Shown here: in pieces, positions 40,272 to 63,836 of the stretch | Numbering within the stretch: the first letter of the stretch is position 1 | Layout of the letters: each line of letters begins with the position of its first letter | Assembly: GCA_947625375.1 (NCBI GenBank) | Contig: CANQOC010000005.1 | Coordinates: forward strand, 45,630 to 109,629 | Source of the DNA: an uncultured Clostridia bacterium | Lineage (GTDB): Bacteria > Bacillota > Clostridia > Oscillospirales > Ruminococcaceae | Direction: 5' to 3' | Length of the DNA: 64,000 nucleotides | The notes under the pieces: model-generated | Database searches by the model: none | What the model was told of the DNA's origin: nothing | What the model saw: only the letters and a program-made list of their open reading frames with translations | Program-made: the position numbers and the translations under genes

Positions 40272-40447
40272 ATCAAATCCTCCTTTAAATCAAAAAACTC
40301 CGGACTTATTATAATCCAACCCGCCGCTGTTGTCAACCGGATTAGAGGTTAGAAATTAGAGATTAGAAATTAGAAGTCAGAAAAATGCCCGCACGGTTAG
40401 ATGCGGGCGATTTTAAGGAAAAAGCTGTTATGCCGTTGTCGGTTAAA

Positions 40448-40708
40448 TCAGTCTCCCGAGCCGACCGGGCCGTTATATCCGCACCAGTCGCAGACAAGGC
40501 TGTTTCCGCCGTCGTACAGATAGATATACGACCCGCCGGACTTCTTGCACATCGGGCAGCAGGGCGCCGGGCGCGTCTTCTGCTCCGCGCCGTCGGATTT
40601 TTTCAGCATCGCGCCGACGCTCTTAATCACGTCGCCGACAATTCCGCCCCCGACAGCTCCCGAGAGCTCGCCGTCTTTAAGCTCGCAATCCTCTTTTCTG
40701 TTGGACAT
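40448..40708 (-). CDS. Array A member A10: double-glycine-leader peptide with zinc-ribbon-like core
   Basis: Leader ...ELKDGELSGAVGG. Core GIVGDVIKSVGAMLKK, a linker, then CCPMCKK...CDWCGYNGP. Confidence 0.75.
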   Translation of the reverse strand: MSNRKEDCELKDGELSGAVGGGIVGDVIKSVGAMLKKSDGAEQKTRPAPCCPMCKKSGGSYIYLYDGGNSLVCDWCGYNGPVGSGD

Positions 40709-40751
40709 TCCGTCAGCCTCCTTTCGTCCTCGGCCGGTCGGCCTTGGGTTA

Positions 40752-41069
40752 TCATCTCATCGTGACAAAGCCGAATTCGTCTTTTCCGATAGAGTCAGGC
40801 TTCGGGGGTTCTTTTTCCTCATGCTTTGGGCGGAACATGGACAGCCAAAAGTCTCCGCACGCTTCCAAAAAATCGTCAAGGATTTCAATTCCTCCGGCGG
40901 CGCCTTCGATTTCCTCGTCAGAAATCTCTCCGCTCCTCGCGTTTATCTTAGAGAAAAACTTCTCGGCGTCTTCCGGCGCGAGGTCCTTGCCGTTTTCCTT
41001 TGCAAGCTCGATAAGCTCGCCGGCGGACTTTGCCGCCCTTGCCCTTTTAATGAATTCTTCTTGTGTCAT
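40752..41069 (-). CDS. Array A member A9: Nif11-type-leader precursor
   Basis: Leader MTQEEFIKRARAAKSAGELIELAKENG...SGEISDEEIEGAAGG. 45-aa core IEILDDFLEACGDFWLSMFRPKHEEKEPPKPDS... Confidence 0.8.
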   Translation of the reverse strand: MTQEEFIKRARAAKSAGELIELAKENGKDLAPEDAEKFFSKINARSGEISDEEIEGAAGGIEILDDFLEACGDFWLSMFRPKHEEKEPPKPDSIGKDEFGFVTMR

Positions 41070-41092
41070 AATATTATCTCCTTTCGGTATTT

Positions 41093-41410
41093 TTATCTCA
41101 TCGTGACAAAGCCGAATTCGTCTTTTCCGATAGAGTCGGGCTTCGGGGGTTCTTTTTCCTCATGCTTTGGGCGGAACATGGACAGCCAAAAGTCTCCGCA
41201 CGCTTCCAAAAAATCGTCAAGGATTTCAATTCCTCCGGCGGCGCCTTCGATTTCCTCGTCAGAAATCTCTCCGCTCCTCGCGTTTATCTTGGAGAAAAGC
41301 TTCTCGGCGTCTTCCAACGCGAGGTTATTGCCGTTTTCCTTTGCAAGCTCGATAAGCTCGCCGGCGGACTTTGCCGCCTTTAATGTTTTAATAATTTCTT
41401 CGTTAGCCAT
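41093..41410 (-). CDS. Array A member A8: Nif11-type-leader precursor (paralog of A9, identical core)
   Basis: The C-terminal two thirds are identical in protein to A9, while the N-terminal leader is diverged. 341-bp tandem duplication. Confidence 0.8.
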   Translation of the reverse strand: MANEEIIKTLKAAKSAGELIELAKENGNNLALEDAEKLFSKINARSGEISDEEIEGAAGGIEILDDFLEACGDFWLSMFRPKHEEKEPPKPDSIGKDEFGFVTMR

Positions 41411-41458
41411 AATAATATCCTCCTGTAAATAAGTATCGGCTTTACTGTCCGAAGATTC

Positions 41459-41782
41459 TCAGTTCTTAATGATAACCTTCTTATTACGCGGATCCAACAG
41501 CTGGCAGAGCAGCATATCGGGTTCATGACCCAGATGTCTGCAGGTTCCGCAGCACCCCTGAAGAATAACCTTGGCTTCGCCGTTGGTAATGCCCTTTTGG
41601 CGCGCGTAAAGGGAAATATTCATTTCGCTCGGAGTGCTGTCGCCCGGCTGATACTGTCCGATAATACACTTGGTGTCAAGCTTAATGACGGGATAGTCGA
41701 GAGAGCCTTCGCCCCCGCCCGCCGCGGCGCTGAGCTTAACGTCGTTAATTTCGCTGTGCTTAATAATCTCTTCATCTGCCAT
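41459..41782 (-). CDS. Array A member A7: short GG-leader precursor with 84-aa core
   Basis: Leader MADEEIIKHSEINDVKLSAAAGG. The core ends ...LQGCCGTCRHLGHEPDMLLCQLL... Confidence 0.72.
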   Translation of the reverse strand: MADEEIIKHSEINDVKLSAAAGGGEGSLDYPVIKLDTKCIIGQYQPGDSTPSEMNISLYARQKGITNGEAKVILQGCCGTCRHLGHEPDMLLCQLLDPRNKKVIIKN

Positions 41783-41823
41783 AATATCGCCTTCTTTCTT
41801 AACGATTAAATTAACCCGGGTTA

Positions 41824-42159
41824 TTAGTTTAGATATAACGGTCCTTCATATCCGCAGTCGTCACAGTAAATCATCTTTGTGCCGTCGGGAGCGTCGTGAA
41901 TAAAAATCCATGCCGACGACGTCTGACCGCAAATCGGGCATTTTTCGGGAGTCCAAGGCGGCGCCGCGGGAGTGGGAGCTTTCGGCTCTTTCTGCTTTTT
42001 CGGCTTAGAGTCCTTTCCACCGTAAAACAAACCGCCGATAGATTCCTTGACCCAGTCAACTACTCCCCCGCCGGCGACATTGTCGAGATTGTCGTCCGAG
42101 ATTTCGTGCGGCTCGGCGGCCTCGATTTTTTCTTCTTTTTTGATTTCCTTTTCAGACAT
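41824..42159 (-). CDS. Array A member A6: GG-leader peptide with zinc-ribbon-like core
   Basis: Leader ...HEISDDNLDNVAGG. Core GVVDWVKESIGG, a Lys/Pro-rich linker, then CPICGQ...CDDCGYEGP. Confidence 0.75.
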   Translation of the reverse strand: MSEKEIKKEEKIEAAEPHEISDDNLDNVAGGGVVDWVKESIGGLFYGGKDSKPKKQKEPKAPTPAAPPWTPEKCPICGQTSSAWIFIHDAPDGTKMIYCDDCGYEGPLYLN

Positions 42160-42205
42160 AATATTATCTCCTTTAAATAAATTTCGTCAGTCGGATATGC
42201 GGTCA

Positions 42206-42451
42206 TCAGACCGAGGACAAGGGCCCCTCATATCCGCACAGCAAGCATTTAATCATAACCGTGCCGTCATCGGCCGCGGTGCCGAAAACAAAAACATTGT
42301 CCACAGGCTTATGGCAAAAGGGGCAGAGGTCGGGTTCCTTCGGCTTCTCCCAAGGATAATGCAAATCCGCCTTAATCCAATCATCGATTGCTCCCCCTCC
42401 CGACGCCTTTTCGAGAGCGCCGTCCGAGAGCTCGCTGTTAAGCCTTTTCAT
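42206..42451 (-). CDS. Array A member A5: GG-leader peptide with zinc-ribbon-like core
   Basis: The ATG at 42451 follows SD aaggagga. Leader MKRLNSELSDGALEKASGG. Core GAIDDWIKADL...CPFCHK...CLLCGYEGP. Confidence 0.75.
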   Translation of the reverse strand: MKRLNSELSDGALEKASGGGAIDDWIKADLHYPWEKPKEPDLCPFCHKPVDNVFVFGTAADDGTVMIKCLLCGYEGPLSSV

Positions 42452-42474
42452 TGCAGCTCCTCCTTCGCGGGTCA

Positions 42475-42657
42475 TCAAAGCCTGCACATGCCGTTGCCGC
42501 AATATTGTCTGCAGTTGTCACAGGACTTATCTTTACTGCCATACTTCCCATTAAAAAGGTCGCAGTAATGCTCGGGCGGGCAGTCGTGACCCCCGTCGAC
42601 CCCGACGCTCTTTCCGCCGGTAACCTTCTCGGTTTCAATGTCTTTAGATTCTTTCAT
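42475..42657 (-). CDS. Array A member A4: bacteriocin-type GG-leader, 6-Cys core
   Basis: MKESKDIETEKVTGG then KSVGVDGGHDCPPEHYC...SCDNCRQYCGNGMCRL. Confidence 0.8.
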   Translation of the reverse strand: MKESKDIETEKVTGGKSVGVDGGHDCPPEHYCDLFNGKYGSKDKSCDNCRQYCGNGMCRL

Positions 42658-42682
42658 TGTAAAGTCCCCTTTCTTCAGTCAA

Positions 42683-42868
42683 TCAAAGTCTGCACCTGTT
42701 GTTGCCGGAATACGCCTGACAGTTGTCACAGGACGTATCCTTCTTCCACTTATCCTTCGCGCAAAATCCTCCGCAGGTATGCGCGGGCGGGCAGTCGTGA
42801 CCCCCGTCGACTCCGACGCTCTTTCCGCCGGTTGCTTCCTCAATCTCGAAATCATTAAGCTCTTTCAT
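42683..42868 (-). CDS. Array A member A3: bacteriocin-type GG-leader, 6-Cys core
   Basis: MKELNDFEIEEATGG then KSVGVDGGHDCPPAHTCGGFC...SCDNCQAYSGNNRCRL. Confidence 0.8.
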   Translation of the reverse strand: MKELNDFEIEEATGGKSVGVDGGHDCPPAHTCGGFCAKDKWKKDTSCDNCQAYSGNNRCRL

Positions 42869-42891
42869 TGTAAATCCTCCTTAAAATAATG

Positions 42892-43110
42892 TTATCGTGC
42901 ATGGTTGCACAGGTCTTTTCCGTCGTTGTTTTTTCCGCAATGGTGACGGCAGTTGTAACAGGAATCCGGGTCTCCCGGAAGTCTTCCGCTGCCCTCTTTC
43001 TCGTGATAATACTTGCATATCTTGCTTTCGGGACAGGTCCAATAGCCGTAGACGTTGACGGTTCTTCCGCCGGTGACTTCCTCAATCTCGAAATCATTAA
43101 GCTCTTTCAT
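42892..43110 (-). CDS. Array A member A2: bacteriocin-type GG-leader, 6-Cys core
   Basis: MKELNDFEIEEVTGG then RTVNVYGYWTCPESKIC...GDPDSCYNCRHHCGKNNDGKDLC. Confidence 0.8.
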   Translation of the reverse strand: MKELNDFEIEEVTGGRTVNVYGYWTCPESKICKYYHEKEGSGRLPGDPDSCYNCRHHCGKNNDGKDLCNHAR

Positions 43111-43127
43111 TGTAATTCCTCCTTAAA

Positions 43128-43355
43128 TTACGGTTCCCACCAAGCTAATGTGCACAGGTTTTCTCCCTTTTGATTATATCCGCAGAAGAAGCGGCAGTAG
43201 ATGCAGGAATCAGGGTCTCCCGGCTGTTTGACCATGCCATCCTTAAATAAATAATGCTTACACATACGGCTTTCGGGACCAACCCAATAACCTATCGGGT
43301 TGACACTTCTTCCTCCGGCGGCCGTCTCGAGTTCCTTGTCGTTAATTTCTTTCAT
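43128..43355 (-). CDS. Array A member A1: bacteriocin-type GG-leader, 5-Cys core
   Basis: MKEINDKELETAAGG then RSVNPIGYWVGPESRMC...GDPDSCIYCRFFCGYNQKGENLC. Confidence 0.8.
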   Translation of the reverse strand: MKEINDKELETAAGGRSVNPIGYWVGPESRMCKHYLFKDGMVKQPGDPDSCIYCRFFCGYNQKGENLCTLAWWEP

Positions 43356-43405: not shown

Positions 43406-43469
43406 ATTATACCACTATTTTTTGATTTTGGCGTGTCGTTTACGTCACATTTCGTGTCGTTTACGTCAC
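43406..43469 (-). promoter_or_regulatory. Array A promoter: two phased 16-bp direct repeats plus an extended -10
   Basis: On the minus strand: GTGACGTAAACGACAC, gaaat, GTGACGTAAACGACAC, 21 nt, TGgTATAAT. The -35 is weak (ACGCCA). Confidence 0.7.
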
Positions 43470-50921: not shown

Positions 50922-52379
50922 ATGATAAAAAGGGTTCTGGCTCTCGGTCTTGCCCTTTTGGTGATTATCGCGCTGATGGGCTGCGGCGCCAATAAGAGAC
51001 AGATTATTGAGCTTACACTTTCGACCGAAGACGCAGAGGCGATTCTCGCCGCGGCGGGAATTCGGCTTCCCGACCCCGCGACCGCTCCGGGCGCGAATTC
51101 GACAATCGTCTGGTACAGCTGGTACGACGACTTCCACGCTTACAGCGAGGGCGAGGTTGTCAACACCGGTTACTTTACCTTCAAAAACTTCTACGGCTGC
51201 GAAATCGACTGGGTTGAGTGCACTTGGGACGAAAGGTTCACAAGAGTTGCGGCGCTCGTCCTCGGAGGCACCCCCCCGGACTTCTATAACGGCGAAACCG
51301 AAAACTTCCCTTATTACGCTATTCACAACGTATTCCAGCCGATTAACGACTATATCGACCTTGACGACCCGCTCTGGGACGGCATTTCGGACTATATGCG
51401 TAAATATTTCTCGCTCGGCGACGACGTATATCTCCTTTGCACCGACCTGTTCTTCGGAAGCGTTATGGCTTATAACCGAAGAGTCATCGAGGACTACGGC
51501 TTCGACGACCCCGCCGAGCTCTTCTATGACGGCGAGTGGACTTGGGACGCATTCGAGGAAATGGCGATGGACTTCTCGGACGAGGAGCTTGACCAATACG
51601 CTCTCGACGGCTGGTTCTATGCCGGCGCATTCCAGCGCGCAAGCGGCGCCCCGATAGTTACATATGACCTTGAGACCGAAAAGTTCGTCTCGAATATGGA
51701 CGACCCGAGACTCGAGCGCGCAAACGACTTTCTCTATAACCTCAACAAGAACGGCTGTATCTTCCCGTGGTTCAACAACGGGTATCAGGTCAGGAATCAG
51801 GGCGCTTCCTCTGCCGCCGACTACGGCGACGGCCTTAAGGAAGGACAGCTTCTCTTCAGCACCGGCGGTCCTTACTTCTTCACCGGACCCGTCGACGAAA
51901 TCTCGATGGAATATGCCGACGTAACCGCGGGCGAGCTTATGTTCGTCCCGATTCCGAGAGACCCGCAGGGCGACGGCATAAACTATGTCGAATCCGACCC
52001 GGCAGGCTACAGCATCATTCAGGACGCTCCCAACCCCGAGGGCGTTGCGCTCCTTGCGATGTGCGACCGCTTCAAGGTCATCGACCCGACCGTCATCAGC
52101 ATCGACAAGCTCCAGAAGATTGAAAAATACCTCTGGACCGACGAGATGCTCGAGATGTATGACTACTGCGTCGAGATGGCAAACAACTCCGACTCGGTTA
52201 TCCTCGCCTATGACGCGGCGGGATTCGGCGGAAACCTCTACTCGACCATCGACACCATCGAAAAGAACGGCATGCAGCTCAACACCAGCACTTGGGCACA
52301 GATTAAGGAAGCCAACAGCGATATGCTCCAGTATTATCTCGACGACATCAACGCCGAGATTGAAGGACTTTTAAGCTGA
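50922..52379 (+). CDS. Lipoprotein, extracellular solute-binding-protein-like (orphan paralog)
   Basis: Lipobox LMGCG. Shares LTLSTED..AILAAAGIRLP, GGTPPDF and ENPEGVALLAMCDRFK with the upstream paralog. Confidence 0.75.
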   Translation: MIKRVLALGLALLVIIALMGCGANKRQIIELTLSTEDAEAILAAAGIRLPDPATAPGANSTIVWYSWYDDFHAYSEGEVVNTGYFTFKNFYGCEIDWVECTWDERFTRVAALVLGGTPPDFYNGETENFPYYAIHNVFQPINDYIDLDDPLWDGISDYMRKYFSLGDDVYLLCTDLFFGSVMAYNRRVIEDYGFDDPAELFYDGEWTWDAFEEMAMDFSDEELDQYALDGWFYAGAFQRASGAPIVTYDLETEKFVSNMDDPRLERANDFLYNLNKNGCIFPWFNNGYQVRNQGASSAADYGDGLKEGQLLFSTGGPYFFTGPVDEISMEYADVTAGELMFVPIPRDPQGDGINYVESDPAGYSIIQDAPNPEGVALLAMCDRFKVIDPTVISIDKLQKIEKYLWTDEMLEMYDYCVEMANNSDSVILAYDAAGFGGNLYSTIDTIEKNGMQLNTSTWAQIKEANSDMLQYYLDDINAEIEGLLS

Positions 52380-52398: not shown

Positions 52399-52430
52399 AA
52401 AGCGGTGTACTTCGGTGCACCGCTTTTTTT
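52399..52430 (+). terminator. Terminator after the second SBP-like gene
   Basis: Stem agcggtgtac, loop ttcg, stem gtgcaccgct, followed by ttttttt. Confidence 0.8.
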
Positions 52431-52449
52431 ATATATTTTCACGCCGAAT

Positions 52450-52513
52450 TTGACGCAGATGACACCTTTTTCCCGCAAACGACAAGGCACAGAGGGAAAA
52501 GATGTGATATAAT
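52450..52513 (+). promoter_or_regulatory. Array B promoter: degenerate copies of the array A direct repeat plus an extended -10
   Basis: TTGACGCAGATGACAC (12/16 match to GTGACGTAAACGACAC), about 20 bp on TTCCCGCAAACGACAA (11/16), then 22 nt to TGaTATAAT (52505-52513). Confidence 0.6.
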
Positions 52514-52557
52514 CATAATGTAAAGTAATTTTTTATCCACCGAAAGGAGCTATTATC

Positions 52558-52989
52558 ATGAACGAAATCATTAAAAAAGCAAGAGCGGCAAAGTCGGCCG
52601 GAGAGCTCATCGAGCTTGCGAAAGCCAACGGCAAGGACCTCACCAAAGAACAGGCCGAGATGTTCTTCAAAAGCCTCAGCCAAGGCGGCGAGATATCCGA
52701 CGAGGAGCTTTCGAGCGCGGTCGGCGGGTGCGGCGGTTCGGAAATATCCTGGGAGAAGAGCCTCGGCTTCTCGAGAATCGATTGCCGAAAGGGCGACTTC
52801 GTCGGGGGACACACCTTTGCGGCGAAGACGTATTGGAAGTGCGCCATCTGCGGGGGACACATCTACTGCGACGGTCCTTTGACCGCATACACCAACTGCA
52901 CCCACCTCAAGCAGCATAAGGTCCTCGGCTGTAACAACTGCTTTTTCAACGAGAACGGAAAATGCAACTACTATGACGACAGCCTTTGA
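52558..52989 (+). CDS. Array B member B1: Nif11-type-leader precursor, 86-aa 9-Cys core
   Basis: Leader MNEIIKKARAAKSAGELIELAKANG...GEISDEELSSAVGG. The core starts CGGSE, contains WKCAIC and ends GCNNCFFNENGKCNYYDDSL. Confidence 0.8.
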   Translation: MNEIIKKARAAKSAGELIELAKANGKDLTKEQAEMFFKSLSQGGEISDEELSSAVGGCGGSEISWEKSLGFSRIDCRKGDFVGGHTFAAKTYWKCAICGGHIYCDGPLTAYTNCTHLKQHKVLGCNNCFFNENGKCNYYDDSL

Positions 52990-53019
52990 TTAAGGGCAGG
53001 GTTCTGAGGAGGTATTATC

Positions 53020-53445
53020 ATGAACGAGGAAATTTTAGCAAAGGCAAAGGCGGCAGGTTCGCCGGAGGAGCTTTTAAAGCTTGCTCACGAAAACGGCATG
53101 TCCTACTTTACCGAGGAGAACGCGAACGCTTATTTCAACGTCCTGCACCAGAGCGGCGAGATTACGGACGAAGAGCTTGAAAAAGCGGCGGGAGGCTGCA
53201 AGAGCAACAAGAGGCGTGTCGTTACGCTCGGATACATCTGCCCCGTAAACTACGGAGGCTGGAAGTGCAAGGACTGCCTTGCGCCGAACAACGTCTGCAA
53301 GTGCTGGCTACAGCCGCCGGAGCTTTCGCGCAAGTTCCACGCGTCAATCTTCGCGTGGTGCGCCGATACATGCAGCACCTGCGCGTGGTGTTCATATGAA
53401 AGCGGCATATGGTACTGCAACAACCCCGAAGCAAACGAACTGTAA
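53020..53445 (+). CDS. Array B member B2: Nif11-type-leader precursor, 82-aa 11-Cys core
   Basis: Leader ...AAGSPEELLKLAHENG...SGEITDEELEKAAGG. The core starts CKSNK, contains WKCKDC and CSTCAWCSYESGIWYCNNP. Confidence 0.8.
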   Translation: MNEEILAKAKAAGSPEELLKLAHENGMSYFTEENANAYFNVLHQSGEITDEELEKAAGGCKSNKRRVVTLGYICPVNYGGWKCKDCLAPNNVCKCWLQPPELSRKFHASIFAWCADTCSTCAWCSYESGIWYCNNPEANEL

Positions 53446-53465
53446 TCCCGAAGGGAGAATTTAAC

Positions 53466-53891
53466 ATGTTTAACGAAGAAATGATTAAAAAAATCCGCGG
53501 ACTCGGCTCGCCCGAGGAGCTTATTGAGTTCGGAAAGGAAAACGGCGTCGCAATCAGCAAGGAGACGGCGGAGAAGTATTTTAACTCGCTTCACGGCAGC
53601 GGCGAAATCTCGGACGAGGAGCTTGAGAACACCGCCGGCGGCTGCGGCGGAGGCTATTCGCCGTCGATATATAAGCAATGCCCCGAATGCGGGACAAATA
53701 TCGCGATGAAGGACTTCCGCGACGTCAAGGTTATCGTCAGCGACGAGGTTCTCCACCAGTGGGGATATCCGACCGGCGTATGCCCGAAATGCAACGTCCG
53801 CTATGCTTATGTCCGCGCGCTGAATATGCTCTATCCCGTATCGGTTGACGAAAAGGGCACTTGGGTCATAAGACCGCCGCACAGATATTAA
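53466..53891 (+). CDS. Array B member B3: Nif11-type-leader precursor, 82-aa core with two CxxC pairs
   Basis: The ATG at 53466 follows SD aagggaga. Leader ...SGEISDEELENTAGG. Core CGGGYSPSIYKQCPEC...GVCPKC. Confidence 0.8.
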   Translation: MFNEEMIKKIRGLGSPEELIEFGKENGVAISKETAEKYFNSLHGSGEISDEELENTAGGCGGGYSPSIYKQCPECGTNIAMKDFRDVKVIVSDEVLHQWGYPTGVCPKCNVRYAYVRALNMLYPVSVDEKGTWVIRPPHRY

Positions 53892-53903
53892 AGGAGCTTT
53901 ATC

Positions 53904-54398
53904 ATGAACGACGAAATTTTAGCAAAGGCAAAGGCGGCGGGGTCGCCGGAGGAGCTTTTGAAGCTGGCTCACGAAAACGGCATGTCCTACTTTACCGAGG
54001 AGAACGCAAGGGCGTATTACAGCCTTATGCACCAAAGCGGTGAGATATCCGACGAGGAGCTTGAAAACGCGGCGGGAGGCTGTCGGAAGGGCGGGTATAG
54101 GGTTGTCTCGCGCGGAAATGTATGCGGCTTGGGGCAGTCGGTGGCAATCAACGGCTTCTATGCGTTCACTGAGTGGAAATGCAAGACCTGTAAAGAAATG
54201 CCGGGAGCCGGACTTAGCTTTGAAGACTGGTATAATGTTCACAGGTCATGCAGCTGCAACCGCAGCATATTAGACTCTGTTGCATTTTCGCTCGGCGTAT
54301 CCGTCAACTTCGGGGCGGTCGGAGTCTGCGGCTCCTGCGATTGGTGCAATTACGTCGACGGCGTTTGGATTTGCACAAACCCGCGTGATGCCGAGTGA
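53904..54398 (+). CDS. Array B member B4: Nif11-type-leader precursor, 105-aa 10-Cys core
   Basis: The leader is nearly identical to that of B2. The core starts CRKGG, contains WKCKTC and CGSCDWCNYVDGVWICTNP. Confidence 0.8.
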   Translation: MNDEILAKAKAAGSPEELLKLAHENGMSYFTEENARAYYSLMHQSGEISDEELENAAGGCRKGGYRVVSRGNVCGLGQSVAINGFYAFTEWKCKTCKEMPGAGLSFEDWYNVHRSCSCNRSILDSVAFSLGVSVNFGAVGVCGSCDWCNYVDGVWICTNPRDAE

Positions 54399-54415: not shown

Positions 54416-54547
54416 ATGAAAGAAGAAATCATTAAAAACGGCGAGATTTCAGACGACGAGCGTGAAAGCGCGGTCGGCGTCCTCGACTACAGGCGCTTCT
54501 CGGAGGTGCAGATTATCGAGGTCTATCACGCATACGGCGGCTTCTGA
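54416..54547 (+). CDS. Array B member B5: 43-aa ORF with a collapsed or decayed leader (remnant or possible signalling peptide)
   Basis: Not in the ORF track. MKEEIIKNGEISDDERESAVGVLDYRRFSEVQIIEVYHAYGGF. Retains the leader ends (EEIIK and GEISDDE..SAVG) but has GV in place of GG. Weak SD. Confidence 0.4.
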   Translation: MKEEIIKNGEISDDERESAVGVLDYRRFSEVQIIEVYHAYGGF

Positions 54548-54557
54548 TTAAAGAAAA

Positions 54558-54587
54558 GGCTTTCCGAATTTCGGTAAGTCCTTTTTT
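54558..54587 (+). terminator. Terminator closing array B
   Basis: Imperfect stem ggctttccga / tcggtaagtc followed by tttttt. Confidence 0.55.
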
Positions 54588-54660
54588 ATGACCCTTGCGG
54601 CGGACAACGCTTAAAAACTCCGTTTTCGCATATAATCATTATATACGAAGAAAGGGAGCG

Positions 54661-55639: not shown

Positions 55640-57217
55640 ATGACAGAAGAAATCATCAACGCCGAGGAGCGCGAGCTTTCCGGCGAGGAAATCAACGAGC
55701 TGAAGAGAATAAGAATGGACAAGCTCGACGCCCTTAAGGCAGAGGGCCGAAATCCGTTCGTCATCACAAAATTCGACTGGAATATCCGCTGCACCGAGCT
55801 TAAGGAATATTATCTCAAGGAAGAAAACAAGGCCAAGGAAGCCGCGGGCGGCGACGAGGAAAAGCTTGCCGCCGAGCTTGAAAAAATCAAGGAGAAGAAG
55901 TGGCGCGTCGCCGGAAGAATACTCTCCCGCCGCGACATGGGCAAGGCAAATTTTATTGACGTACAGGATTCGACCGAGCGGCTTCAGGTCTATGTCCGCT
56001 CGAACGACATCGGCGACGGTGTATTTTCCGACTTCAAAAAGTGGGACATCGGCGACATCGTCGGCGTCGAAGGCTTTGTTTTCAGGACGAGAAGGGGCGA
56101 AATCTCGCTCCACGCGACGAGCATCGTCCTGCTCACAAAATCGCTCCTACCGCTCCCCGAGAAGTGGCACGGACTTAAGGACCGCGACCAGCGTTACCGC
56201 CAGAGGTATGTCGACCTTATCGTCAACCCGGACGTCAGAAAGACGTTCATCAACCGCTCGAAGATAATAAGCTCAATCCGCCGCTATCTTGATTCACAGG
56301 GATTTATCGAGGTCGAGACGCCGATGCTTGTGCACAACGCCGGCGGCGCCGCGGCGCGTCCTTTTAACACGCATTACAACGCGCTGAACGAGGACGTGAA
56401 ACTCAGAATCTCGCTCGAGCTTTACTTAAAGAGGCTTATTGTCGGCGGCATCGACAGGGTGTACGAAATCGGGCGGGTCTTCCGCAACGAGGGCGTCGAT
56501 ACCCAGCACAACCCCGAGTTCACGCTGATGGAGCTTTATCAGGCATACACCGACTATCACGGAATGATGGATTTGACCGAGAATCTCTACCGCCACGTCG
56601 CGAACGAAGTTCTCGGAACGACACAGGTCCCTTGGGGCGACGTTATAATCGACCTCGGAAAGCCTTTTGAGCGAATCACGATGGTCGACGCGGTGAAAAA
56701 ATACGCCGGAATCGACTGGAAGACCGTGAAGACCGACGAAGAGGCCTTCGCGATTGCCGACGAAAAGCATATTGAGTATGACAGAAAGCGTCACAAAAAG
56801 GGAGATATCCTTAATCTGCTCTTTGAGGAATATGTCGAGGAGCACCTTGTTCAGCCGACGTTCATCATGGACCACCCGGTCGAAATCAGTCCGCTGACAA
56901 AGCGCAAGCCGGACGACCCCGACTATGTCGAGCGGTTCGAGATGTATATCAACTGCGGCGAGATGTGCAACGCCTACAGCGAGCTGAACGACCCCGTCGA
57001 CCAGCGCGAGCGCTTCATGCGGCAGGAGGAGCTTTTGAAGCTCGGCGACGAGGAAGCCAACTCGATTGACGAGGACTTCATGCGCGCCCTCGAAATCGGA
57101 ATGCCCCCCACCGGCGGCATCGGCTTCGGCATCGACCGCATGATTATGCTCCTCACCAACTCTCCGGCGATAAGAGATGTCCTGCTGTTCCCGACGATGA
57201 AGTCAATCGACAAGTAA
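55640..57217 (+). CDS. lysS: Lysine--tRNA ligase (class II)
   Basis: OB-fold anticodon-binding domain, class II motifs (FRNEG, GGIGFGIDR). The ATG at 55640 with SD ggag is preferred over the TTG at 55628. Confidence 0.96.
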   Translation: MTEEIINAEERELSGEEINELKRIRMDKLDALKAEGRNPFVITKFDWNIRCTELKEYYLKEENKAKEAAGGDEEKLAAELEKIKEKKWRVAGRILSRRDMGKANFIDVQDSTERLQVYVRSNDIGDGVFSDFKKWDIGDIVGVEGFVFRTRRGEISLHATSIVLLTKSLLPLPEKWHGLKDRDQRYRQRYVDLIVNPDVRKTFINRSKIISSIRRYLDSQGFIEVETPMLVHNAGGAAARPFNTHYNALNEDVKLRISLELYLKRLIVGGIDRVYEIGRVFRNEGVDTQHNPEFTLMELYQAYTDYHGMMDLTENLYRHVANEVLGTTQVPWGDVIIDLGKPFERITMVDAVKKYAGIDWKTVKTDEEAFAIADEKHIEYDRKRHKKGDILNLLFEEYVEEHLVQPTFIMDHPVEISPLTKRKPDDPDYVERFEMYINCGEMCNAYSELNDPVDQRERFMRQEELLKLGDEEANSIDEDFMRALEIGMPPTGGIGFGIDRMIMLLTNSPAIRDVLLFPTMKSIDK

Positions 57218-57399
57218 AGGCCGCTGTTTATGCGCCTTCGCGAATATTTAAGCGCATTGAATACACCGGTGTATACATCATGAGGCGTTGAGCTATAGTA
57301 AATGATAAAGTGCCCCCGTTTCGTAAGAGACGGGGACGGATTTTTGTCTGTGACCAGTATATTTTTATATTTTTAAATATAAAGTTGTTCTTCACTACG

Positions 57400-57666
57400 C
57401 ACTGTGAAACTACCGATATCGATAATGATTTTGTCAGCGCAAACGATTTGTATACCGAGTATCTCGCATTTTGCAGAGAAAACAGCATGCAGGCGTTGAA
57501 CTCAATGCCGGGGTTCTCGCAAAGGCTGATGTACTTGTACGCTCCTGCTATTGAATCGGATAGAAAGGGCAGTCTCAACGGATACCGAAGGCTTAAACTA
57601 TACAAAGACCCTGTCGTGTTTGTAGGGTCGAAGTCAGCTACAAGCGAAAAAGCAGATCAAGAGTAA
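57400..57666 (+). pseudogene. C-terminal remnant of a phage/plasmid (P4-family-like) primase
   Basis: DFVSANDLYTEYLAFCRENSMQALNSMPGFSQRL resembles the primase C-terminal region. The N-terminal catalytic part is absent, and the upstream part of the ORF is AT-rich and unconvincing. Confidence 0.3.
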
Positions 57667-57755
57667 TAATAACCTAAAGACGATATTTTTAAATATTTAA
57701 ACTGTATAATATCCTTCTGAAACATCGTTTCAATTATATTTCAAGAGGATTTATT

Positions 57756-58127
57756 ATGTCTAAAATCACTATTTTGGTCGTCGAGCCCAGCAAAAAGCCC
57801 TATGTCAAAGAAATCGAAAACACCCTTAAATCACTTCAACATGAAGTCGAAGGTTACATTCAAGCCGTCTATCCTTGGAAGGAGCCAGCAGCTCTGATTT
57901 GCGACGAAGAATCAAAGCTAAAGAATAAGCCTTTCAACCGAGCAATGAGAGATGAGGACGGCAAAATCTACGATTATATCTCCGGCACTTTCCTGATCAC
58001 CGGTCTCGGCGAGGAAGACTTTGCTTCGCTGTCGCCGGAGCTGGTTACTCACTTCTCCGACCTATTCTCCGTTTCCGAAATGCTCGTCAGCATCGACGGG
58101 AAGCTGACCGTCCTGCCGATGAATTAA
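57756..58127 (+). CDS. DUF3846-domain protein
   Basis: ITILVVEPSKKPYVKEIENTLKSLQHEVEGYIQAVYP...ALICDEESKLKNKPFN, the pattern typical of DUF3846 found on Firmicutes mobile elements. Confidence 0.7.
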   Translation: MSKITILVVEPSKKPYVKEIENTLKSLQHEVEGYIQAVYPWKEPAALICDEESKLKNKPFNRAMRDEDGKIYDYISGTFLITGLGEEDFASLSPELVTHFSDLFSVSEMLVSIDGKLTVLPMN

Positions 58128-58168
58128 GAAGGCAGATTCAGTCCCACCTTCTATATAAGAGGAGAGAC

Positions 58169-60088
58169 TTAATTTTGAAAGTACTCCGATACCGCCTTAA
58201 CAAACTCATCTTTGGTAAGAGGCTGCTTGCCGGATTTACCGCTTACGGGCGCCTGTGACTGCCCCTGCGCAGGCGCAGCAGTTTCAGTCGAATTTTCGGA
58301 AAGCATTTCAGGATTAAGGTCAAAGAGAGTCATCTGACCTGAGTCTTCATTCTTTTCCTTCTTCTGTGTAGCCATGAAGTTCTTAACATATTCCTGATAA
58401 ATCTCAAGCTGCGTTTTCGGATTGCTGACTTCGGCAAACGACTTCACGCCGGACGCCGTAATTGCAAAATCAAGCAGAGAAAGCTGACCATCGTCCACAG
58501 TAGCCGATACACCTACGGACTCCGAAGGCTCAACAGCAGCCTTATCGAGATCACGATAACGGAAGATATCACTGCTCTTGATTTCATCTACAATTTCTCT
58601 GTAATGGTCATGTGCAACAATGTCAAGAGAGTCCAAGTCCTCATTGCCCGTCTGTTCTCCAAATGGGAGCCTCAAGCCGCGGCCAATAGTCTGCATAGCA
58701 AGAATTTCGCTTTTTGCCGCATTAAGCGGGATAATCGTAAAGAGGTTATTGACATCCCAGCCTTCCTTCAGCTTATAAACGTGCAAAACAATCTCAATCG
58801 GGTTGGAAGAACTCTCTATAGAGAGCAAAAGACGGATATTCTCTTCTGATTCTTCACCAGTCTGTTTTGAATGGATTTCTATAACCTTGCCCTTATACTT
58901 GCCGTTTTGGAAGTCATCGCTGTCGATAAGCACACGTATTTTCTTTGCATGGTCTGTATCTTTGCAGGCAATAAGAACAATCGGTTTCACATAGCCGAGA
59001 TCATTCTCATTGCAATAGTCTCCTTTTTCATCACAAAGTAACAGTACCGGGAAGAGAAGTTTTGAGGAATCGCAGAAGGCTCCTATAAACAGGATTCCGT
59101 GCGATCCGAGAACTTTTTCTCCCCAATTATCAACTTTCCAGTAGTGAAGTCCGCCGTCAACTTCCAGCTCATCAAATGCACTCCAGTATTCCACGTCGTG
59201 CAGGTACCTTGCAATGTCAGCCTTAGTCGCTTCGAGTGCCTGTTCCTTTGCACCGCTGCTTTCGGTGAGCAGAATGGAGCGGAGTTCTCTTGCTTTCTTG
59301 TCCCGATTTGCGTTCAGTTTGCGATCCAGCTTGTCAAAGGCTTTCTTAAACTCCGCTGTGGTGTTGCAGGTCTGGTAGTCCTGACCTTCGATGTAGCGTT
59401 TGATAAATACCTTTTCGCTTCCGAAAATACGCTGGTCAATAAATGATACCAGTCCGTGAAGATCTGTCAGCGAATTCTGAAGAGGTGTAGCAGTCAGCAA
59501 AATCTTCGGTATGCCCTTGGATAGTTCATACAGATTCTTTGCACGTTTCGTTCCGTGAAATACGTTTCTTAGGTTGTGCGCCTCATCGATAATGATGAAA
59601 TCCCACTTCACCTCCGGGAACCGTTTCATCAACTTTGATGAGTAGTCGTAGGTGGTAATGACAATTCTGACAGAATTATTGTCAGTAAGTCTCTTACGCC
59701 AGTCTGAACTATCTTTTTCTACTGTAATCCTGTCAAGTATCACTGACTCCAAATTGAACTTATCCTCAAGTTCCAGTTCCCACTGTTTTCTCAATGATGC
59801 CGGGAGTGCAATCAAGACACGCTTTGCGCCGGACTCAAGAACATATTTCAGTACAAGTCCGGCTTCGATGGTCTTTCCGAGTCCTACCTCATCGGCAAGT
59901 ACGATACCACCTGTTTTCAACGCTTGGATAGCAGCGCAGAAGGCATTTATCTGATGAGGATTCAATTCAATGTTCGCGTCCAAAAGGAAGTGGAACGGAG
60001 ATGCCTCAAGTTCCAGCTTTTTATATCTGCTGAATTGCTCAAGGAGCAGGTTACCTTCCATCTGTATCTCCTTTATACAGTTGCTCAA
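58169..60088 (-). CDS. Superfamily-2 helicase: SNF2-like N-terminal lobe, type III Res-like C-terminal lobe, no nuclease domain
   Basis: Motif I ADEVGLGKT, II IIIDEAHNL, III LLTATPLQN, then KLKEGWDVNNLFTIIPL...QTIGRGLRLPFG. The start (60088 or 60061) overlaps the MTase stop. Confidence 0.8.
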   Translation of the reverse strand: MSNCIKEIQMEGNLLLEQFSRYKKLELEASPFHFLLDANIELNPHQINAFCAAIQALKTGGIVLADEVGLGKTIEAGLVLKYVLESGAKRVLIALPASLRKQWELELEDKFNLESVILDRITVEKDSSDWRKRLTDNNSVRIVITTYDYSSKLMKRFPEVKWDFIIIDEAHNLRNVFHGTKRAKNLYELSKGIPKILLTATPLQNSLTDLHGLVSFIDQRIFGSEKVFIKRYIEGQDYQTCNTTAEFKKAFDKLDRKLNANRDKKARELRSILLTESSGAKEQALEATKADIARYLHDVEYWSAFDELEVDGGLHYWKVDNWGEKVLGSHGILFIGAFCDSSKLLFPVLLLCDEKGDYCNENDLGYVKPIVLIACKDTDHAKKIRVLIDSDDFQNGKYKGKVIEIHSKQTGEESEENIRLLLSIESSSNPIEIVLHVYKLKEGWDVNNLFTIIPLNAAKSEILAMQTIGRGLRLPFGEQTGNEDLDSLDIVAHDHYREIVDEIKSSDIFRYRDLDKAAVEPSESVGVSATVDDGQLSLLDFAITASGVKSFAEVSNPKTQLEIYQEYVKNFMATQKKEKNEDSGQMTLFDLNPEMLSENSTETAAPAQGQSQAPVSGKSGKQPLTKDEFVKAVSEYFQN

Positions 60089-61337
60089 AAATACCCATTG
60101 CTATCCCTTTGGCCATCATCGGAGGCACAGCATTTCCAATCTGAACAAATTGAGATGTGCGTGGTCCCTCAAAGAAATAGCTGTCCGGGAAGGACTGTAT
60201 TCTTGCTGCCTCGCGGACGGTAATTGATCTATTCTGTTCAATATCAGGATGAATGAAATAATGACCATCCTTTGAAAGGTGTGCCAGAATGGTATGGCAA
60301 CACGATTCATCACCTTCGACAACTTTGAACCTATCCGTGAACGAATGTCTGTTTTTATGCGTCTTCAATTCATCCGGGAGATTGTTGTAGTTGAGGCGTT
60401 TATGACCATCATTCCACAGTTCAACCGCTCTCCTGTAAATCTTGATATCCCGATCTATATTCGGTCGGCAATTATGGTGAGTCAGAACATCATCTTTCGT
60501 CCGTATTCCATATTCCGTGACATAACTGCTTGCTTTTGATTTAGCATATTTATCGGAGCTCTCGCCTGGATGCAGTTTAGGCAGATCAACAAAGAGATCA
60601 TTGACTATAGCGCCCGTTTTGATTTCAAGAAAATCGGGATACTTTAGACCGCTTTTCTTTAGCCACCCCACGATAATCATTCGGCGCCTGTTTTGGAGAA
60701 CGCCGAACGTGTGTGCGTTCTGCTCCCGACATTCAATTTCGTAACCCACTCGTTTTAAGTATTTCTGAATGTTCTTCCAAGTAGCTCCGCCGTTGGCCGA
60801 TTCAATACCCGTGACATTCTCGAAAACGAACATACGAGGCTGATAGCGTTTTAGGAAACGTGCGTACAGTTTGTATAAGTAGTTACGAGGGTCTTCTGCC
60901 ATTGGCACTTCCATGTGGCTGCTTTGCGCTCTGCCCACTAAGGAGTAAGCTTGGCAAGGAGGGCCTCCAACAATAACATCAATCTTAGTGATGCCTCGAA
61001 TTTTCATTATCCCATCAATGGTCTTGAAAATTGCCGGGAGCGTCTCGTCTGACATCGTTTCATTGATGATGGTTTTTGTTATGGAAGCAGGTATCTGCTT
61101 CATAAAATCGTCGCGGGAGATTTTCCCCAACACGTATTTTTTATATAAGCCGAGATTGTCAGTGCCTTTCAAATAATAATAGGCACTTCTCGTTTCAAGC
61201 GTTTTTGCTGCAAACTTATTCATTTCAACATGAGCTACAGGTTTGAACCCAGCCTGAAGAAACCCTTCTGAAAGACCACCTGCTCCTGCAAAAAGGTCAA
61301 TGAAATTGTAGCTATATTGCGCATCTATCTTTGGCAT
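60051..61337 (-). CDS. dcm: DNA (cytosine-5)-methyltransferase
   Basis: Motif I DLFAGAGGLSEGF, IV GGPPCQAYS, VI FVFENV, X QIGNAVPP. Confidence 0.93.
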   Translation of the reverse strand: MPKIDAQYSYNFIDLFAGAGGLSEGFLQAGFKPVAHVEMNKFAAKTLETRSAYYYLKGTDNLGLYKKYVLGKISRDDFMKQIPASITKTIINETMSDETLPAIFKTIDGIMKIRGITKIDVIVGGPPCQAYSLVGRAQSSHMEVPMAEDPRNYLYKLYARFLKRYQPRMFVFENVTGIESANGGATWKNIQKYLKRVGYEIECREQNAHTFGVLQNRRRMIIVGWLKKSGLKYPDFLEIKTGAIVNDLFVDLPKLHPGESSDKYAKSKASSYVTEYGIRTKDDVLTHHNCRPNIDRDIKIYRRAVELWNDGHKRLNYNNLPDELKTHKNRHSFTDRFKVVEGDESCCHTILAHLSKDGHYFIHPDIEQNRSITVREAARIQSFPDSYFFEGPRTSQFVQIGNAVPPMMAKGIAMGIFEQLYKGDTDGR

Positions 61338-61361
61338 ATAGTTTCCTCGTCACTCTTCGTT

Positions 61362-61619
61362 TTAATCGGAAGGCTCTTGTTCTTCCACACTGTTCTTGTC
61401 CGATTTCATTGGCGCCGAATCTGGGACGAATTCCATAATGTCAGCAACATCGCATTTTAGTTCCTGACAGATTTTTGAAAGAACCTCTGTGGTTACATTC
61501 TCATCTTTGGTGAGCTTAGCGAGTGAAGAAGAGCTGATACCTGCTTTTTTTCGCAGATCAGACTTTTTCATCTGCTTATCAATCAGTAACTTCCACAGCT
61601 TGTTATAACTCATCTTCAT
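61362..61619 (-). CDS. XRE-family HTH regulator (controller-protein-like, upstream of the MTase)
   Basis: 85 aa. HTH MKKSDLRKKAGISSSSLAKLTKDENVTTEVLSKICQEL. Confidence 0.85.
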   Translation of the reverse strand: MKMSYNKLWKLLIDKQMKKSDLRKKAGISSSSLAKLTKDENVTTEVLSKICQELKCDVADIMEFVPDSAPMKSDKNSVEEQEPSD

Positions 61620-62070
61620 TTTGTTTTATTCCTCCGTGTCCCATTGTCTTCAATATAGTTTACGATTATTTGTTGGCAGTTTCAATTATTTTATTATAAT
61701 GACATCAGTGCTGGAAAAGAAGCTACATTGAGACGTAAAATACGTTAAATTTATTATAGCATAAAAGTGTCCGTTTGTCAAATCAATCGTTCGCGTTGTG
61801 GATATTTTTCGGTCATTAAGGATGTATTTATGGCGATACCCCAATTATACACCAATCCGGCAGTTGACGCATTAGTTTACATTGATAAATAATCACCGGT
61901 AAATGTATAAAGTGCAACGGCAGCAAGTCCGATAAAATTTAGTCCCTTACTTATCCCGCAAAATATCCAAAAAACTGTTTACAAAACGGAAAAAGTGTGG
62001 TAAAATATACATAGGTCATATCAGCCGATTAAAGCGGCGGGTGACACTATTTTTGAGAAAAGGTGATTTT

Positions 62071-62451: not shown

Positions 62452-62498
62452 CGGAAAGCGCTCCGAGAGGAGCGCCCCGATAAAACAGATATGTTTTC

Positions 62499-62532
62499 CG
62501 AACCGATGTATCACTGCATCGGTTCGTTTTTT
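62499..62532 (+). terminator. DUF805 gene terminator
   Basis: 10-bp stem cgaaccgatg / catcggttcg followed by tttttt. Confidence 0.8.
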
Positions 62533-63673: not shown

Positions 63674-63836
63674 AATCGGACAGGATTTTGTCAATGATGA
63701 TACTGTAATCTAACAAAAAATCAAGACACGTGCCACAAATAGCCTTGACAAGTTCAGAAAAATGTGATATAATAACCCCGCTTACGATTGTATCGCGCAC
63801 GGATGTTTATATATTTCATTTGGAGGCTTTTCAATA

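What the first reader, a model, noticed from the sequence alone, without database searches (positions are those of the whole stretch)
52450..52513. Array B has the same repeat-plus-extended -10 architecture, suggesting a shared regulator for two loci 9 kb apart on opposite strands
Upstream of B1 the sequence reads TTGACGCAGATGACAC (12/16 identical to the array A repeat). About 20 bp later comes TTCCCGCAAACGACAA (11/16, retaining the AAACGACA half). After 22 nt comes TGaTATAAT. In array A the corresponding spacings are 21 bp between repeats and 21 nt to TGgTATAAT. Motif, copy number, phasing and distance to an extended -10 all recur in front of the only two GG-leader arrays in the window. The array B copies are degenerate, so the match is suggestive rather than exact.
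Basis: seen in the sequence. Interest (0 to 1): 0.78.

Follow-up and report, generated by a model that had tools for sequence, protein, structure and literature searches.

The report
Shared LytTR-type promoter for peptide arrays
Both clusters of small secreted-peptide genes in this gut Clostridia genome sit behind the same pair of DNA repeats and the same promoter layout, which in other genomes lies next to LytTR-type response regulators, so one such regulator very probably switches both clusters: a familiar bacteriocin-style circuit using a DNA motif I could not find described.

Summary
Array B (52450-52513) carries two degenerate copies of the array A repeat, with cores CGCAGATGACA and CGCAAACGACA against CGTAAACGACA. 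They are 20 bp apart, followed by 23 nt and TGaTATAAT, and no -35 is present. From the distal core to the -10 hexamer is 54 nt in both A and B.

A matrix trained only on sites from other genomes scores A at 47.8 bits and B at 33.1 bits. The next best site in the window scores 9.2, and the best of 200 simulated windows scores 21.8.

The same module precedes GG-leader or Nif11-like peptide arrays in two rabbit-gut Clostridia MAGs, three times in one of them. It also lies beside a GHKL histidine kinase and a REC-LytTR response regulator in many Clostridia. That includes two loci fetched through the regulator protein alone.

So A and B are most likely co-regulated targets of a LytTR-family regulator. 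That regulator is not encoded in the window or within 10 kb of either end. Activation is inferred, not shown.

This is the textbook bacteriocin-promoter design (pln, blp, com, agr) with an apparently undescribed motif, in uncultured gut Clostridia. It is a new member of a known kind and of moderate interest.

The parts
52399..52436 (+). Intrinsic terminator of the upstream solute-binding-protein gene (50922-52379). It insulates the array B promoter from read-through.
   Evidence: 12-bp stem followed by a T-run; sequence.
52450..52465 (+). Array B distal repeat TTGACGCAGATGACAC. Its core CGCAGATGACA lies at 52454-52464.
   Evidence: 12/16 match to the A repeat. Single-site matrix score 16.6 bits. 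The same variant core is seen at L016 and L094.
52470..52485 (+). Array B proximal repeat TTCCCGCAAACGACAA. Its core CGCAAACGACA lies at 52474-52484 and directly abuts the position a -35 hexamer would occupy.
   Evidence: 11/16 match to the A repeat, with one mismatch in the 11-nt core. Single-site score 16.5 bits. 23 nt to the -10 hexamer.
52505..52513 (+). Extended -10 element TGATATAAT of the array B promoter, with no -35 match. The transcription start is predicted near 52519-52521.
   Evidence: Sequence. Not picked up by the -35/-10 scan. TGn before the -10 in most related sites.
52558..54398 (+). Array B: four genes for Cys-rich peptides of 141-164 aa with leaders of about 60 aa, Nif11-like and ending in GG. 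The genes lie at 52558-52989, 53020-53445, 53466-53891 and 53904-54398.
   Evidence: ORFs. leader_Nif11 TIGR03798 hits of 15.8-26.3 bits, below the 32.3-bit cutoff. Alignment with the L016 orthologues.
54416..54590 (+). Truncated peptide-gene remnant (54416-54547; GG is replaced by GV) and a terminator-like hairpin with T-run (about 54555-54590). This is the probable end of the array B operon.
   Evidence: Sequence. A full-length homologue is present in L162. A related strain carries 9 genes here.
43454..43469 (-). Array A distal repeat GTGACGTAAACGACAC, with core at 43465-43455. It overlaps the tatD stop codon.
   Evidence: Exact copy. Core invariant in strains that are 95-98% identical.
43433..43448 (-). 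Array A proximal repeat GTGACGTAAACGACAC, with core at 43444-43434. Period 21.
   Evidence: Exact copy. 22 nt to the -10 hexamer.
43406..43414 (-). Extended -10 element TGGTATAAT of the array A promoter, with no -35 match.
   Evidence: Sequence; scan.
40387..43355 (-). Array A operon: ten GG-leader peptide genes from 43355 down to 40448. Eight have shorter GG leaders, about 15-30 aa before the GG. Two have Nif11-like leaders of about 60 aa (41410-41093 and 41069-40752). The operon ends at the terminator 40408-40387.
   Evidence: ORFs and translations; terminator; genes as called in other assemblies.

Best explanation
The two repeats in front of array B, like the two perfect repeats in front of array A, are the tandem binding sites of one LytTR-family transcription regulator, most likely a REC-LytTR response regulator phosphorylated by a GHKL histidine kinase.

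Proposed mechanism:
- Two regulator molecules bind head-to-tail on one face of the DNA. The sites have a period of 20-21 bp and a conserved core aCGTAAACGACAc.
- The proximal core abuts the position where a -35 hexamer would sit.
- The promoter has no -35 but has an extended -10 (TGnTATAAT). The bound regulator is therefore inferred to recruit RNA polymerase and switch on a polycistronic message.
- That message encodes secreted, double-glycine-leader, Cys-rich peptides: 10 genes in A and 4 in B.
- A and B would thus belong to one regulon, and the weaker B sites probably need more active regulator.

What is shown: the module, its statistical significance, its recurrence at peptide arrays in other genomes, and its co-location with LytTR regulator and kinase pairs.

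What is inferred: binding by a LytTR protein in this organism, the positive sign of control, and co-expression. The regulator, the signal and the exporter are encoded outside the window.
For: Anatomy:
- Searches give periods of 21 (A) and 20 (B), and 22 and 23 nt from the proximal core to TATAAT.
- The distance from distal-core start to the -10 hexamer is 54 nt in both. That is the commonest value, found in 8 of 15 related sites.
- There is no -35.

Significance:
- A and B are the only qualifying pairs in the window.
- B scores 33.1 bits against a next best of 9.2 and a simulated maximum of 21.8.
- in about 636 kb of other fetched loci, two-site scores of at least 16 bits occur only at A and B promoters and at the regulator-family loci.

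Recurrence at peptide arrays:
- L016 (nine peptides, including orthologues of B2 and B3), L038, L093 and L094 all carry the module.
- L038, L093 and L094 are three contigs of one MAG. A second genome therefore shows the same multi-locus pattern.

Link to LytTR regulators:
- In the motif-seeded loci, Pfam confirms PF04397 LytTR plus PF00072, and the PF14501 GHKL kinase, next to the module.
- 13 of 99 motif-seeded loci hold such a regulator within 8 kb.
- A regulator-seeded test was run without reference to the motif. Both testable loci (L182/L183 and L185) carry the motif pair plus a -10 element in the intergenic region between the kinase gene and its divergently transcribed neighbour, at 22.2 and 32.3 bits.

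Strain comparison:
- The array A cores are invariant while the spacer and a flanking base vary.
- The B intergenic region has substitutions at 52388, 52390, 52414, 52445 and 52530, but none within 52450-52513.

Literature on LytTR promoters:
- Two 9-bp tandem repeats with a 12-bp spacer lie directly upstream of the -35/-10. The right repeat is better conserved and binding is cooperative (PMC2714321).
- Spacers of 11-13 bp and an extended -10 are reported (PMC6193735).
- The consensus and a 12-13 bp separation upstream of the -35 are given in PMC5600425.
Against: - No LytTR regulator, cognate kinase or peptidase-containing exporter is encoded in the window or within 10 kb of either end. The rest of the source genome could not be searched.
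- The published LytTR 9-mer consensus [TA][AC][CA]GTTN[AG][TG] is matched at only 5 of 8 specified positions, in either orientation.
- 55 Nif11-type peptide loci fetched by protein similarity, mostly from human gut, lack the motif. The link between arrays and motif is therefore lineage-specific.
- The B cores carry 3 and 1 mismatches, and their period is 20 rather than 21.
- A perfect extended -10 can work without a -35, so the bound protein could repress instead of activate.
- The strains compared are too close for strong phylogenetic footprinting.
- There are no expression data.
Confidence: 0.72

Rival explanations
1. The same sites bind the same LytTR-family protein, but it represses. The extended -10 promoters would be intrinsically active. 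The regulator, sitting from about -36 to -66, would block polymerase or upstream contacts until a signal removes it.
For: - Both promoters have a perfect TATAAT with a TG extension, which can be independent of a -35.
- The proximal core abuts the -35 position.
- LytTR repressors that use the same repeats as an activator are known, for example PlnD against PlnC (PMC2714321).
Against: - Most characterised LytTR regulators at two-repeat sites just upstream of a weak or absent -35 are activators.
- The fixed 22-23 nt register to the -10 across distant genomes suits a precise activating contact better than simple occlusion.
Confidence: 0.13
2. The repeats are operators for a regulator that is not LytTR. 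Candidates are the OmpR-type two-component system in the window (10657-11364 and 9223-10650, minus strand), or a helix-turn-helix dimer that recognises each partly palindromic 16-mer.
For: - An OmpR/PhoB-type response regulator and a HAMP-HisKA kinase lie 32 kb from array A.
- The A 16-mer is 12/16 self-complementary, GTGnCGTn/nACGnCAC.
Against: - OmpR-type sites repeat every 10-11 bp, not every 20-21 bp.
- The palindromic flanks (GTG...CAC) are not conserved in other genomes or in B. Only the asymmetric core is conserved.
- Across genomes the motif co-occurs with LytTR regulators in 13 motif-seeded loci and in 2 of 2 regulator-seeded loci. No other regulator type recurs.
Confidence: 0.07
3. 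The B repeats are a decayed, non-functional relic or a chance resemblance. Array B would then be driven constitutively by its extended -10.
For: - The B copies match at only 12/16 and 11/16, with a period of 20 instead of 21.
- The regulator is unknown.
Against: - B scores 33.1 bits against a simulated maximum of 21.8.
- Its register to the -10 is identical to A and to the commonest geometry in other genomes.
- The variant CGCAGAYGACA recurs at array promoters in L016 and L094.
- A period of 20 is the commonest value among related sites.
- No substitutions fall within 52450-52513 in strains that vary elsewhere in the same intergenic region.
Confidence: 0.05

Closest known systems
pln bacteriocin regulon promoters of Lactobacillus plantarum C11 (PlnC/PlnD, LytTR response regulators)
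   Same: - Several separate operons of double-glycine-leader peptides each carry two tandem repeats at about 21-bp periodicity directly upstream of the -35/-10.
- The repeats are imperfect. Binding is dimeric and cooperative, and different operons have sites of different quality (PMC2714321).
   Different: - The repeat is TACGTTAAT (9 bp) there, against a conserved 11-13 nt core aCGTAAACGACAc here.
- The pln regulator, kinase, inducer peptide and transporter lie within the locus. Here none lies within the window or 10 kb of its ends.
- The peptides here are much larger (60-164 aa precursors), Cys-rich, and partly carry Nif11-like leaders.
- The host is an uncultured gut Clostridia bacterium.
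AgrA P2/P3 promoters of Staphylococcus aureus, and the ComE/BlpR boxes of streptococci
   Same: Imperfect direct repeats 12-13 bp apart upstream of a poor -35, used for activation by a phosphorylated LytTR response regulator (PMC5600425). The ComE/BlpR comparison rests on my own knowledge.
   Different: - The consensus [TA][AC][CA]GTTN[AG][TG] is matched at only 5 of 8 positions.
- The kinases found next to this motif in other genomes are about 555 aa, with a predicted external domain of about 140 aa. They are not the polytopic AgrC/ComD type, so the signal may not be a peptide pheromone.
HdrR/BrsR LytTR regulatory systems of Streptococcus mutans
   Same: Direct repeats with 11-12 bp spacers upstream of promoters that have an extended -10, controlling bacteriocin genes. 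The repeat sequences diverge from the family consensus (PMC6193735).
   Different: - Those repeats lie 4-11 bp upstream of a recognisable -35. Here the core abuts the -35 position and no -35 is present.
- Those regulators lack a receiver domain and pair with a membrane inhibitor. The regulators found next to this motif are classical REC-LytTR proteins paired with a kinase.
Nif11-like leader peptide precursor family (NCBIfam TIGR03798)
   Same: An N-terminal helical leader of about 60 residues ending in GG, and multiple paralogous precursors arranged in tandem.
   Different: - All six window peptides score below the curated cutoff, at 15.8-26.3 bits against 32.3.
- No modifying enzyme or exporter is adjacent.
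- The cores are long, Cys-rich domains resembling zinc ribbons.

Membership tests
LytTR-regulated promoter (AgrA/ComE/PlnC type) | Two direct, often imperfect, repeats of the recognition sequence | tested here: met
   A has two perfect 17-mers. B has 12/16 and 11/16 copies, with 3 and 1 mismatches in the 11-nt cores.
LytTR-regulated promoter (AgrA/ComE/PlnC type) | Repeat period of about 20-22 bp (9-bp sites with an 11-13 bp spacer), placing both sites on one DNA face | tested here: met
   Period is 21 in A and 20 in B, and 20 or 21 in all 13 related sites.
LytTR-regulated promoter (AgrA/ComE/PlnC type) | Sites immediately upstream of the -35 position of a promoter with a poor or absent -35, often with an extended -10 | tested here: met
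   The proximal core ends 22-23 nt before TATAAT, so it abuts the -35 position. There is no -35 match. TGnTATAAT is present.
LytTR-regulated promoter (AgrA/ComE/PlnC type) | Repeat matches the consensus [TA][AC][CA]GTTN[AG][TG] | tested here: inconclusive
   GACGTAAAC (forward) and GTCGTTTAC (reverse) each match 5 of the 8 specified positions. The consensus comes from PMC5600425. Divergent repeats are documented for bona fide LytTR systems.
LytTR-regulated promoter (AgrA/ComE/PlnC type) | A LytTR-domain regulator is encoded in the same genome | not testable with these tools
   None in the window or within 10 kb of either end. The source genome is not in the searchable genome collection, because the A site was not retrieved. 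In other genomes the motif lies beside REC-LytTR regulators.
LytTR-regulated promoter (AgrA/ComE/PlnC type) | The regulator binds the repeats and changes transcription | not testable with these tools
   Needs EMSA or footprinting, and reporter or RNA data.
Three-component peptide-pheromone bacteriocin locus (pln/blp/spp type) | Kinase, response regulator and inducer peptide genes linked to the bacteriocin operons | tested here: not met
   The neighbours of both arrays are housekeeping genes: tatD, GH5 cellulases, solute-binding proteins, greA and lysS. No such genes lie in the 64 kb or within 10 kb of its ends.
Three-component peptide-pheromone bacteriocin locus (pln/blp/spp type) | Linked ABC exporter with a C39 peptidase domain for GG-leader cleavage | tested here: not met
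   The three ORFs of 600 aa or more are alaS, recG (both Pfam) and an SNF2-type helicase (precomputed Pfam families). No ABC exporter with a peptidase domain was seen among the ORFs scanned with Pfam.
Nif11-like leader peptide precursors (TIGR03798) | Score above the curated cutoff of the family model | tested here: not met
   B1-B4 and the two 105-aa array A peptides score 15.8-26.3 bits against a cutoff of 32.3. They resemble the family only in leader architecture.
OmpR/PhoB-type response regulator site | Direct half-sites repeated every 10-11 bp | tested here: not met
   The conserved unit is an 11-13 nt core repeated every 20-21 bp, with no internal 10-11 bp repeat.

The most novel reading that the evidence does not exclude
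The motif aCGTAAACGACAc may define an undescribed, dispersed LytTR regulon in herbivore-gut Clostridia.

- It would coordinate many unlinked operons of large, Cys-rich mini-proteins with double-glycine leaders, some resembling zinc ribbons. The operons are embedded among housekeeping genes.
- The sensor kinase may carry a sizeable external domain, so the input could be an environmental cue and not a peptide pheromone.
- The same 11-nt word is used by a second LytTR regulator family that is only 22-32% identical. That family uses it in the opposite orientation and 10 bp further upstream. This implies convergent or very ancient DNA specificity and two different activation geometries.
Probability: 0.3. 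Interest if true: 0.55.

Novelty: new member of a known kind. Interest (0 to 1): 0.4.

Why it matters
If confirmed, this gives a concrete cis-element with which to find the whole regulon in uncultured gut Clostridia. It consists of an 11-13 nt core, a period of 20-21 bp, and 22-23 nt to an extended -10. That regulon would include further peptide arrays, the exporter and the regulator itself.

The element would also allow silent peptide arrays to be switched on in heterologous hosts.

It further shows that secreted-peptide arrays with no nearby regulator, maturase or transporter can still be tied to a control circuit through promoter comparison. The design principle itself, LytTR direct repeats in front of double-glycine peptide operons, is long established. 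The gain is therefore in scope and tooling, not in concept.

Tried and rejected
1. Protein-seeded metagenome search. I used an alignment of the leaders to ask without motif bias whether the motif precedes such arrays in general. The 55 loci, mostly human gut, have no motif and carry a different conserved promoter. The motif is therefore lineage-specific, and this set could not be used for footprinting.

2. Closest relatives of array B. I fetched them through B1 homologues. The strains are 96-100% identical, too close for strong footprinting. More distant relatives (L161-L166, L190) sit on contigs that begin about 59 nt upstream of the first gene, so the promoter is cut off.

3. Locating the regulator of this organism.
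   - Pfam over the ORFs of the window found only an OmpR-type system and a MarR protein.
   - The 10-kb flanks hold rpoB/rpoC on one side and a mobile element on the other.
   - The cluster-member look-ups returned no accessions, so regulator homologues could not be tied to the same samples.

4. Rfam over the whole window found only two tRNAs and nothing in the leaders.

5. A full-text literature search for the motif strings found only unrelated primers. 'LytTR' together with 'Nif11' gave no paper.

6. I considered reading each 16-mer as a palindromic operator and rejected it, because only the asymmetric core is conserved in other genomes.

7. I considered whether the kinase-adjacent sites serve the kinase promoter instead. 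Those genes have their own -35/-10, placed 19 or 30 nt beyond the repeats. The peptide arrays have no divergent gene, so the orientation towards the extended -10 is the relevant one.

Full report
**What is there**

Array B begins with a strong terminator (52399-52426) that closes a solute-binding-protein gene. It is followed by:
- TTGACGCAGATGACAC at 52450-52465;
- TTCCCGCAAACGACAA at 52470-52485;
- TGATATAAT at 52505-52513;
- a ribosome-binding site;
- four genes for peptides of 141-164 aa (52558-54398). Their N-terminal 57-60 residues look like Nif11-type leaders ending in GG, and their cores are Cys-rich.

A truncated fifth gene (54416-54547) and a terminator-like hairpin end the operon.

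Array A lies on the minus strand, about 9 kb away.
- It has two perfect copies of GTGACGTAAACGACAC(G), at 43469-43454 and 43448-43433.
- TGGTATAAT lies at 43414-43406.
- Ten GG-leader genes run from 43355 to 40448, ending at a terminator at 40408-40387.
- The distal repeat overlaps the stop codon of tatD.

Neither promoter has a recognisable -35.

**Checking the observation**

| | Period | Second 16-mer to TATAAT hexamer | Distal 11-nt core start to -10 hexamer |
|---|---|---|---|
| Array A | 21 | 21 nt | 54 nt |
| Array B | 20 | 22 nt | 54 nt |

In the whole window, on both strands, the only pairs of sites with at least 11/16 matches spaced 18-23 bp apart are A and B.

I built a position weight matrix from 22 sites in 11 other genomes. 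It scores the A pair at 47.8 bits and the B pair at 33.1 bits, with the next best at 9.2. 200 Markov simulations of the window gave a maximum of 7.3 +/- 3.5 bits and never more than 21.8. The four repeats are the only single sites of at least 16 bits.

One caveat applies. The training sites were retrieved with a degenerate pattern designed to admit both the A and the B variants. The matrix is therefore not blind to B's substitutions, but the simple mismatch count gives the same answer.

**Related sequences**

I scanned 185,579 species-representative genomes for two copies of CGYARAYGACA spaced 9-10 nt apart. It returned 99 loci. Many are unrelated tandem repeats, but a Clostridia subset has exactly the same module: period 20-21, then 22-25 nt, then TGnTAnAAT.

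In four of these loci the module directly precedes arrays of GG-leader or Nif11-like Cys-rich peptides:
- L016 has nine peptides, including clear orthologues of B2 and B3.
- L038, L093 and L094 are three contigs of a single rabbit-gut MAG. A second genome therefore shows the same pattern of several dispersed arrays sharing one promoter module.

The 'degenerate' B core CGCAGATGACA recurs in L016 and L094, which argues that it is a tolerated variant.

**Which regulator**

In L001, L005/L060/L081, L026, L066 and L083 the module lies in the intergenic region between a target gene and a divergently transcribed membrane kinase of about 555 aa. A protein of about 237 aa is encoded next to the kinase.
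- Pfam identifies the pair as a GHKL kinase (PF14501) and a REC-LytTR regulator (PF00072 + PF04397).
- A profile search of all ORFs in the 99 loci finds a REC-LytTR regulator within 8 kb in 13 loci. That is far above what a family with a few copies per genome would give by chance. The base rate is my own estimate.

To remove motif-seeding bias I searched for homologues of these regulators, which gave 487 hits at E < 1e-40. I fetched three of them without reference to DNA.
- Both loci that include the kinase-side intergenic region (L182/L183 and L185) carry the motif pair with a correctly placed -10, at 22.2 and 32.3 bits.
- The third (L184) is cut by the contig end.

Across about 636 kb of other fetched DNA, no site of at least 16 bits occurs anywhere else.

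**Comparison with known LytTR promoters**

Published LytTR promoters have these features:
- two 9-bp tandem repeats with a 12-bp spacer (11-13 bp tolerated), directly upstream of the -35/-10;
- often an extended -10;
- cooperative binding of two regulator molecules;
- a proximal repeat that is better conserved than the distal one.

The sources are PMC2714321, PMC6193735 and PMC5600425.

All of this fits A and B. In B the proximal core has one mismatch and the distal core has three.

The fit to the family consensus [TA][AC][CA]GTTN[AG][TG] is only 5 of 8 positions in either orientation, so that criterion is inconclusive. The conserved block here is also longer, at 11-13 nt.

**What could not be shown**

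- No LytTR regulator, partner kinase or C39-peptidase exporter is encoded in the 64-kb window or in the 10 kb beyond either end.
- The source genome is not in the searchable genome collection. The window is part of a 112,570-bp NCBI contig.
- Strain comparisons are consistent with constraint but weak.
  - In A, the cores are invariant while the spacer and the base after the proximal core vary.
  - In B, substitutions fall at 52388, 52390, 52414, 52445 and 52530, and none fall within 52450-52513.
- Whether the regulator activates or represses cannot be decided from sequence. Absence of a -35 and the fixed register favour activation. A perfect extended -10 leaves repression open.

**Scope**

The link between peptide arrays and this motif is lineage-specific. 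55 Nif11-type loci retrieved by protein similarity, mostly from human gut, lack it and share a different conserved promoter.

**Verdict**

I refine it to a LytTR-family regulator encoded elsewhere in the genome.

This is the classical bacteriocin-promoter design in a new lineage. I found no description of the motif in the searchable literature. It is a new member of a known kind, of moderate interest.

Noticed in passing
L111, L114, L120, L127, L130, L131, L133, L135, L138, L140, L145, L148 (upstream of the first peptide gene in each): Human-gut arrays of Nif11-like peptides share a different conserved promoter. It reads TTAGCC or TTTGCAAAAACGG, then about 17 nt, then (C)GTATAAATA(AGTGAAAG). 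It usually lies just after the end of an ABC-transporter-like gene. In L149 an ORF resembling sigma-70 region 4 lies immediately upstream, so a dedicated sigma factor is possible.
   Followed up: no
L010, L031, L049, L055, L071, L072, L085: A second class of site reads GTGTCGTTTGCGCAAAAAAGATGTCGTTTGCG. This is the same word as here but in the opposite orientation, with G in place of A at one position. It is followed by 32 nt and TGTGnTAtAAt. It lies downstream of an operon encoding a 430-aa AgrC-like kinase and a 234-aa LytTR regulator, and it faces a lipoprotein-like gene. The two regulator families are only 22-32% identical.
   Followed up: partly
window 57200-64000, and beyond in L186: A low-GC region (41-46%) carries a DUF3846 protein, an SNF2 helicase (58169-60088), a C5 DNA methylase (60051-61337) and HTH proteins. 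Outside the window it continues to RelB, DUF6017, a serine recombinase and TnpW. This is an integrated mobile element inserted after lysS.
   Followed up: partly
window 54416-54547; L167 5745-9644; L168: Array B varies in length between strains. This strain has four genes plus a truncated remnant. A strain about 98% identical has nine genes at the same site between the solute-binding-protein gene and greA.
   Followed up: partly
L161 1-60, L163 1-61, L190 1-60: Several metagenome contigs begin about 59 nt upstream of the first peptide gene, just after where the promoter module would be. The module may be repeated often enough in these genomes to break assemblies.
   Followed up: no
window 43466-43469 and 43433-43469: The tatD stop codon lies inside the distal repeat of array A. 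No terminator separates tatD from array A, so read-through may give basal expression. The A 16-mer is 12/16 self-complementary.
   Followed up: partly
window 40448-43355: One operon mixes shorter GG leaders (about 15-30 aa before the GG) with Nif11-like leaders of about 60 aa. Several cores have paired CxxC motifs resembling zinc ribbons, with a sub-threshold Lar-family hit. The genes at 41410-41093 and 41069-40752 are 94% identical duplicates.
   Followed up: no
L016 1086-3118 (minus strand): In the rabbit-gut MAG with array B orthologues, a radical SAM/SPASM enzyme (579 aa) follows a single Nif11-like peptide gene that is divergent from the main array. Some of these peptides may therefore be modified.
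   Followed up: no
L005 960-2618, L026 3241-4914, L185 7702-9369: The kinases next to the motif are about 555 aa. A crude hydropathy plot predicts a first transmembrane segment, an external domain of about 140 aa, then 3-5 further hydrophobic segments, and then the GHKL domain. This is unlike AgrC/ComD-type peptide sensors. They are transcribed convergently with their regulator.
   Followed up: partly
window 38058-40336 (minus strand): Two tandem GH5 cellulase genes lie directly downstream of array A. They have their own perfect consensus promoter, TTGACA-17-TATAAT, at 40336-40308.
   Followed up: no
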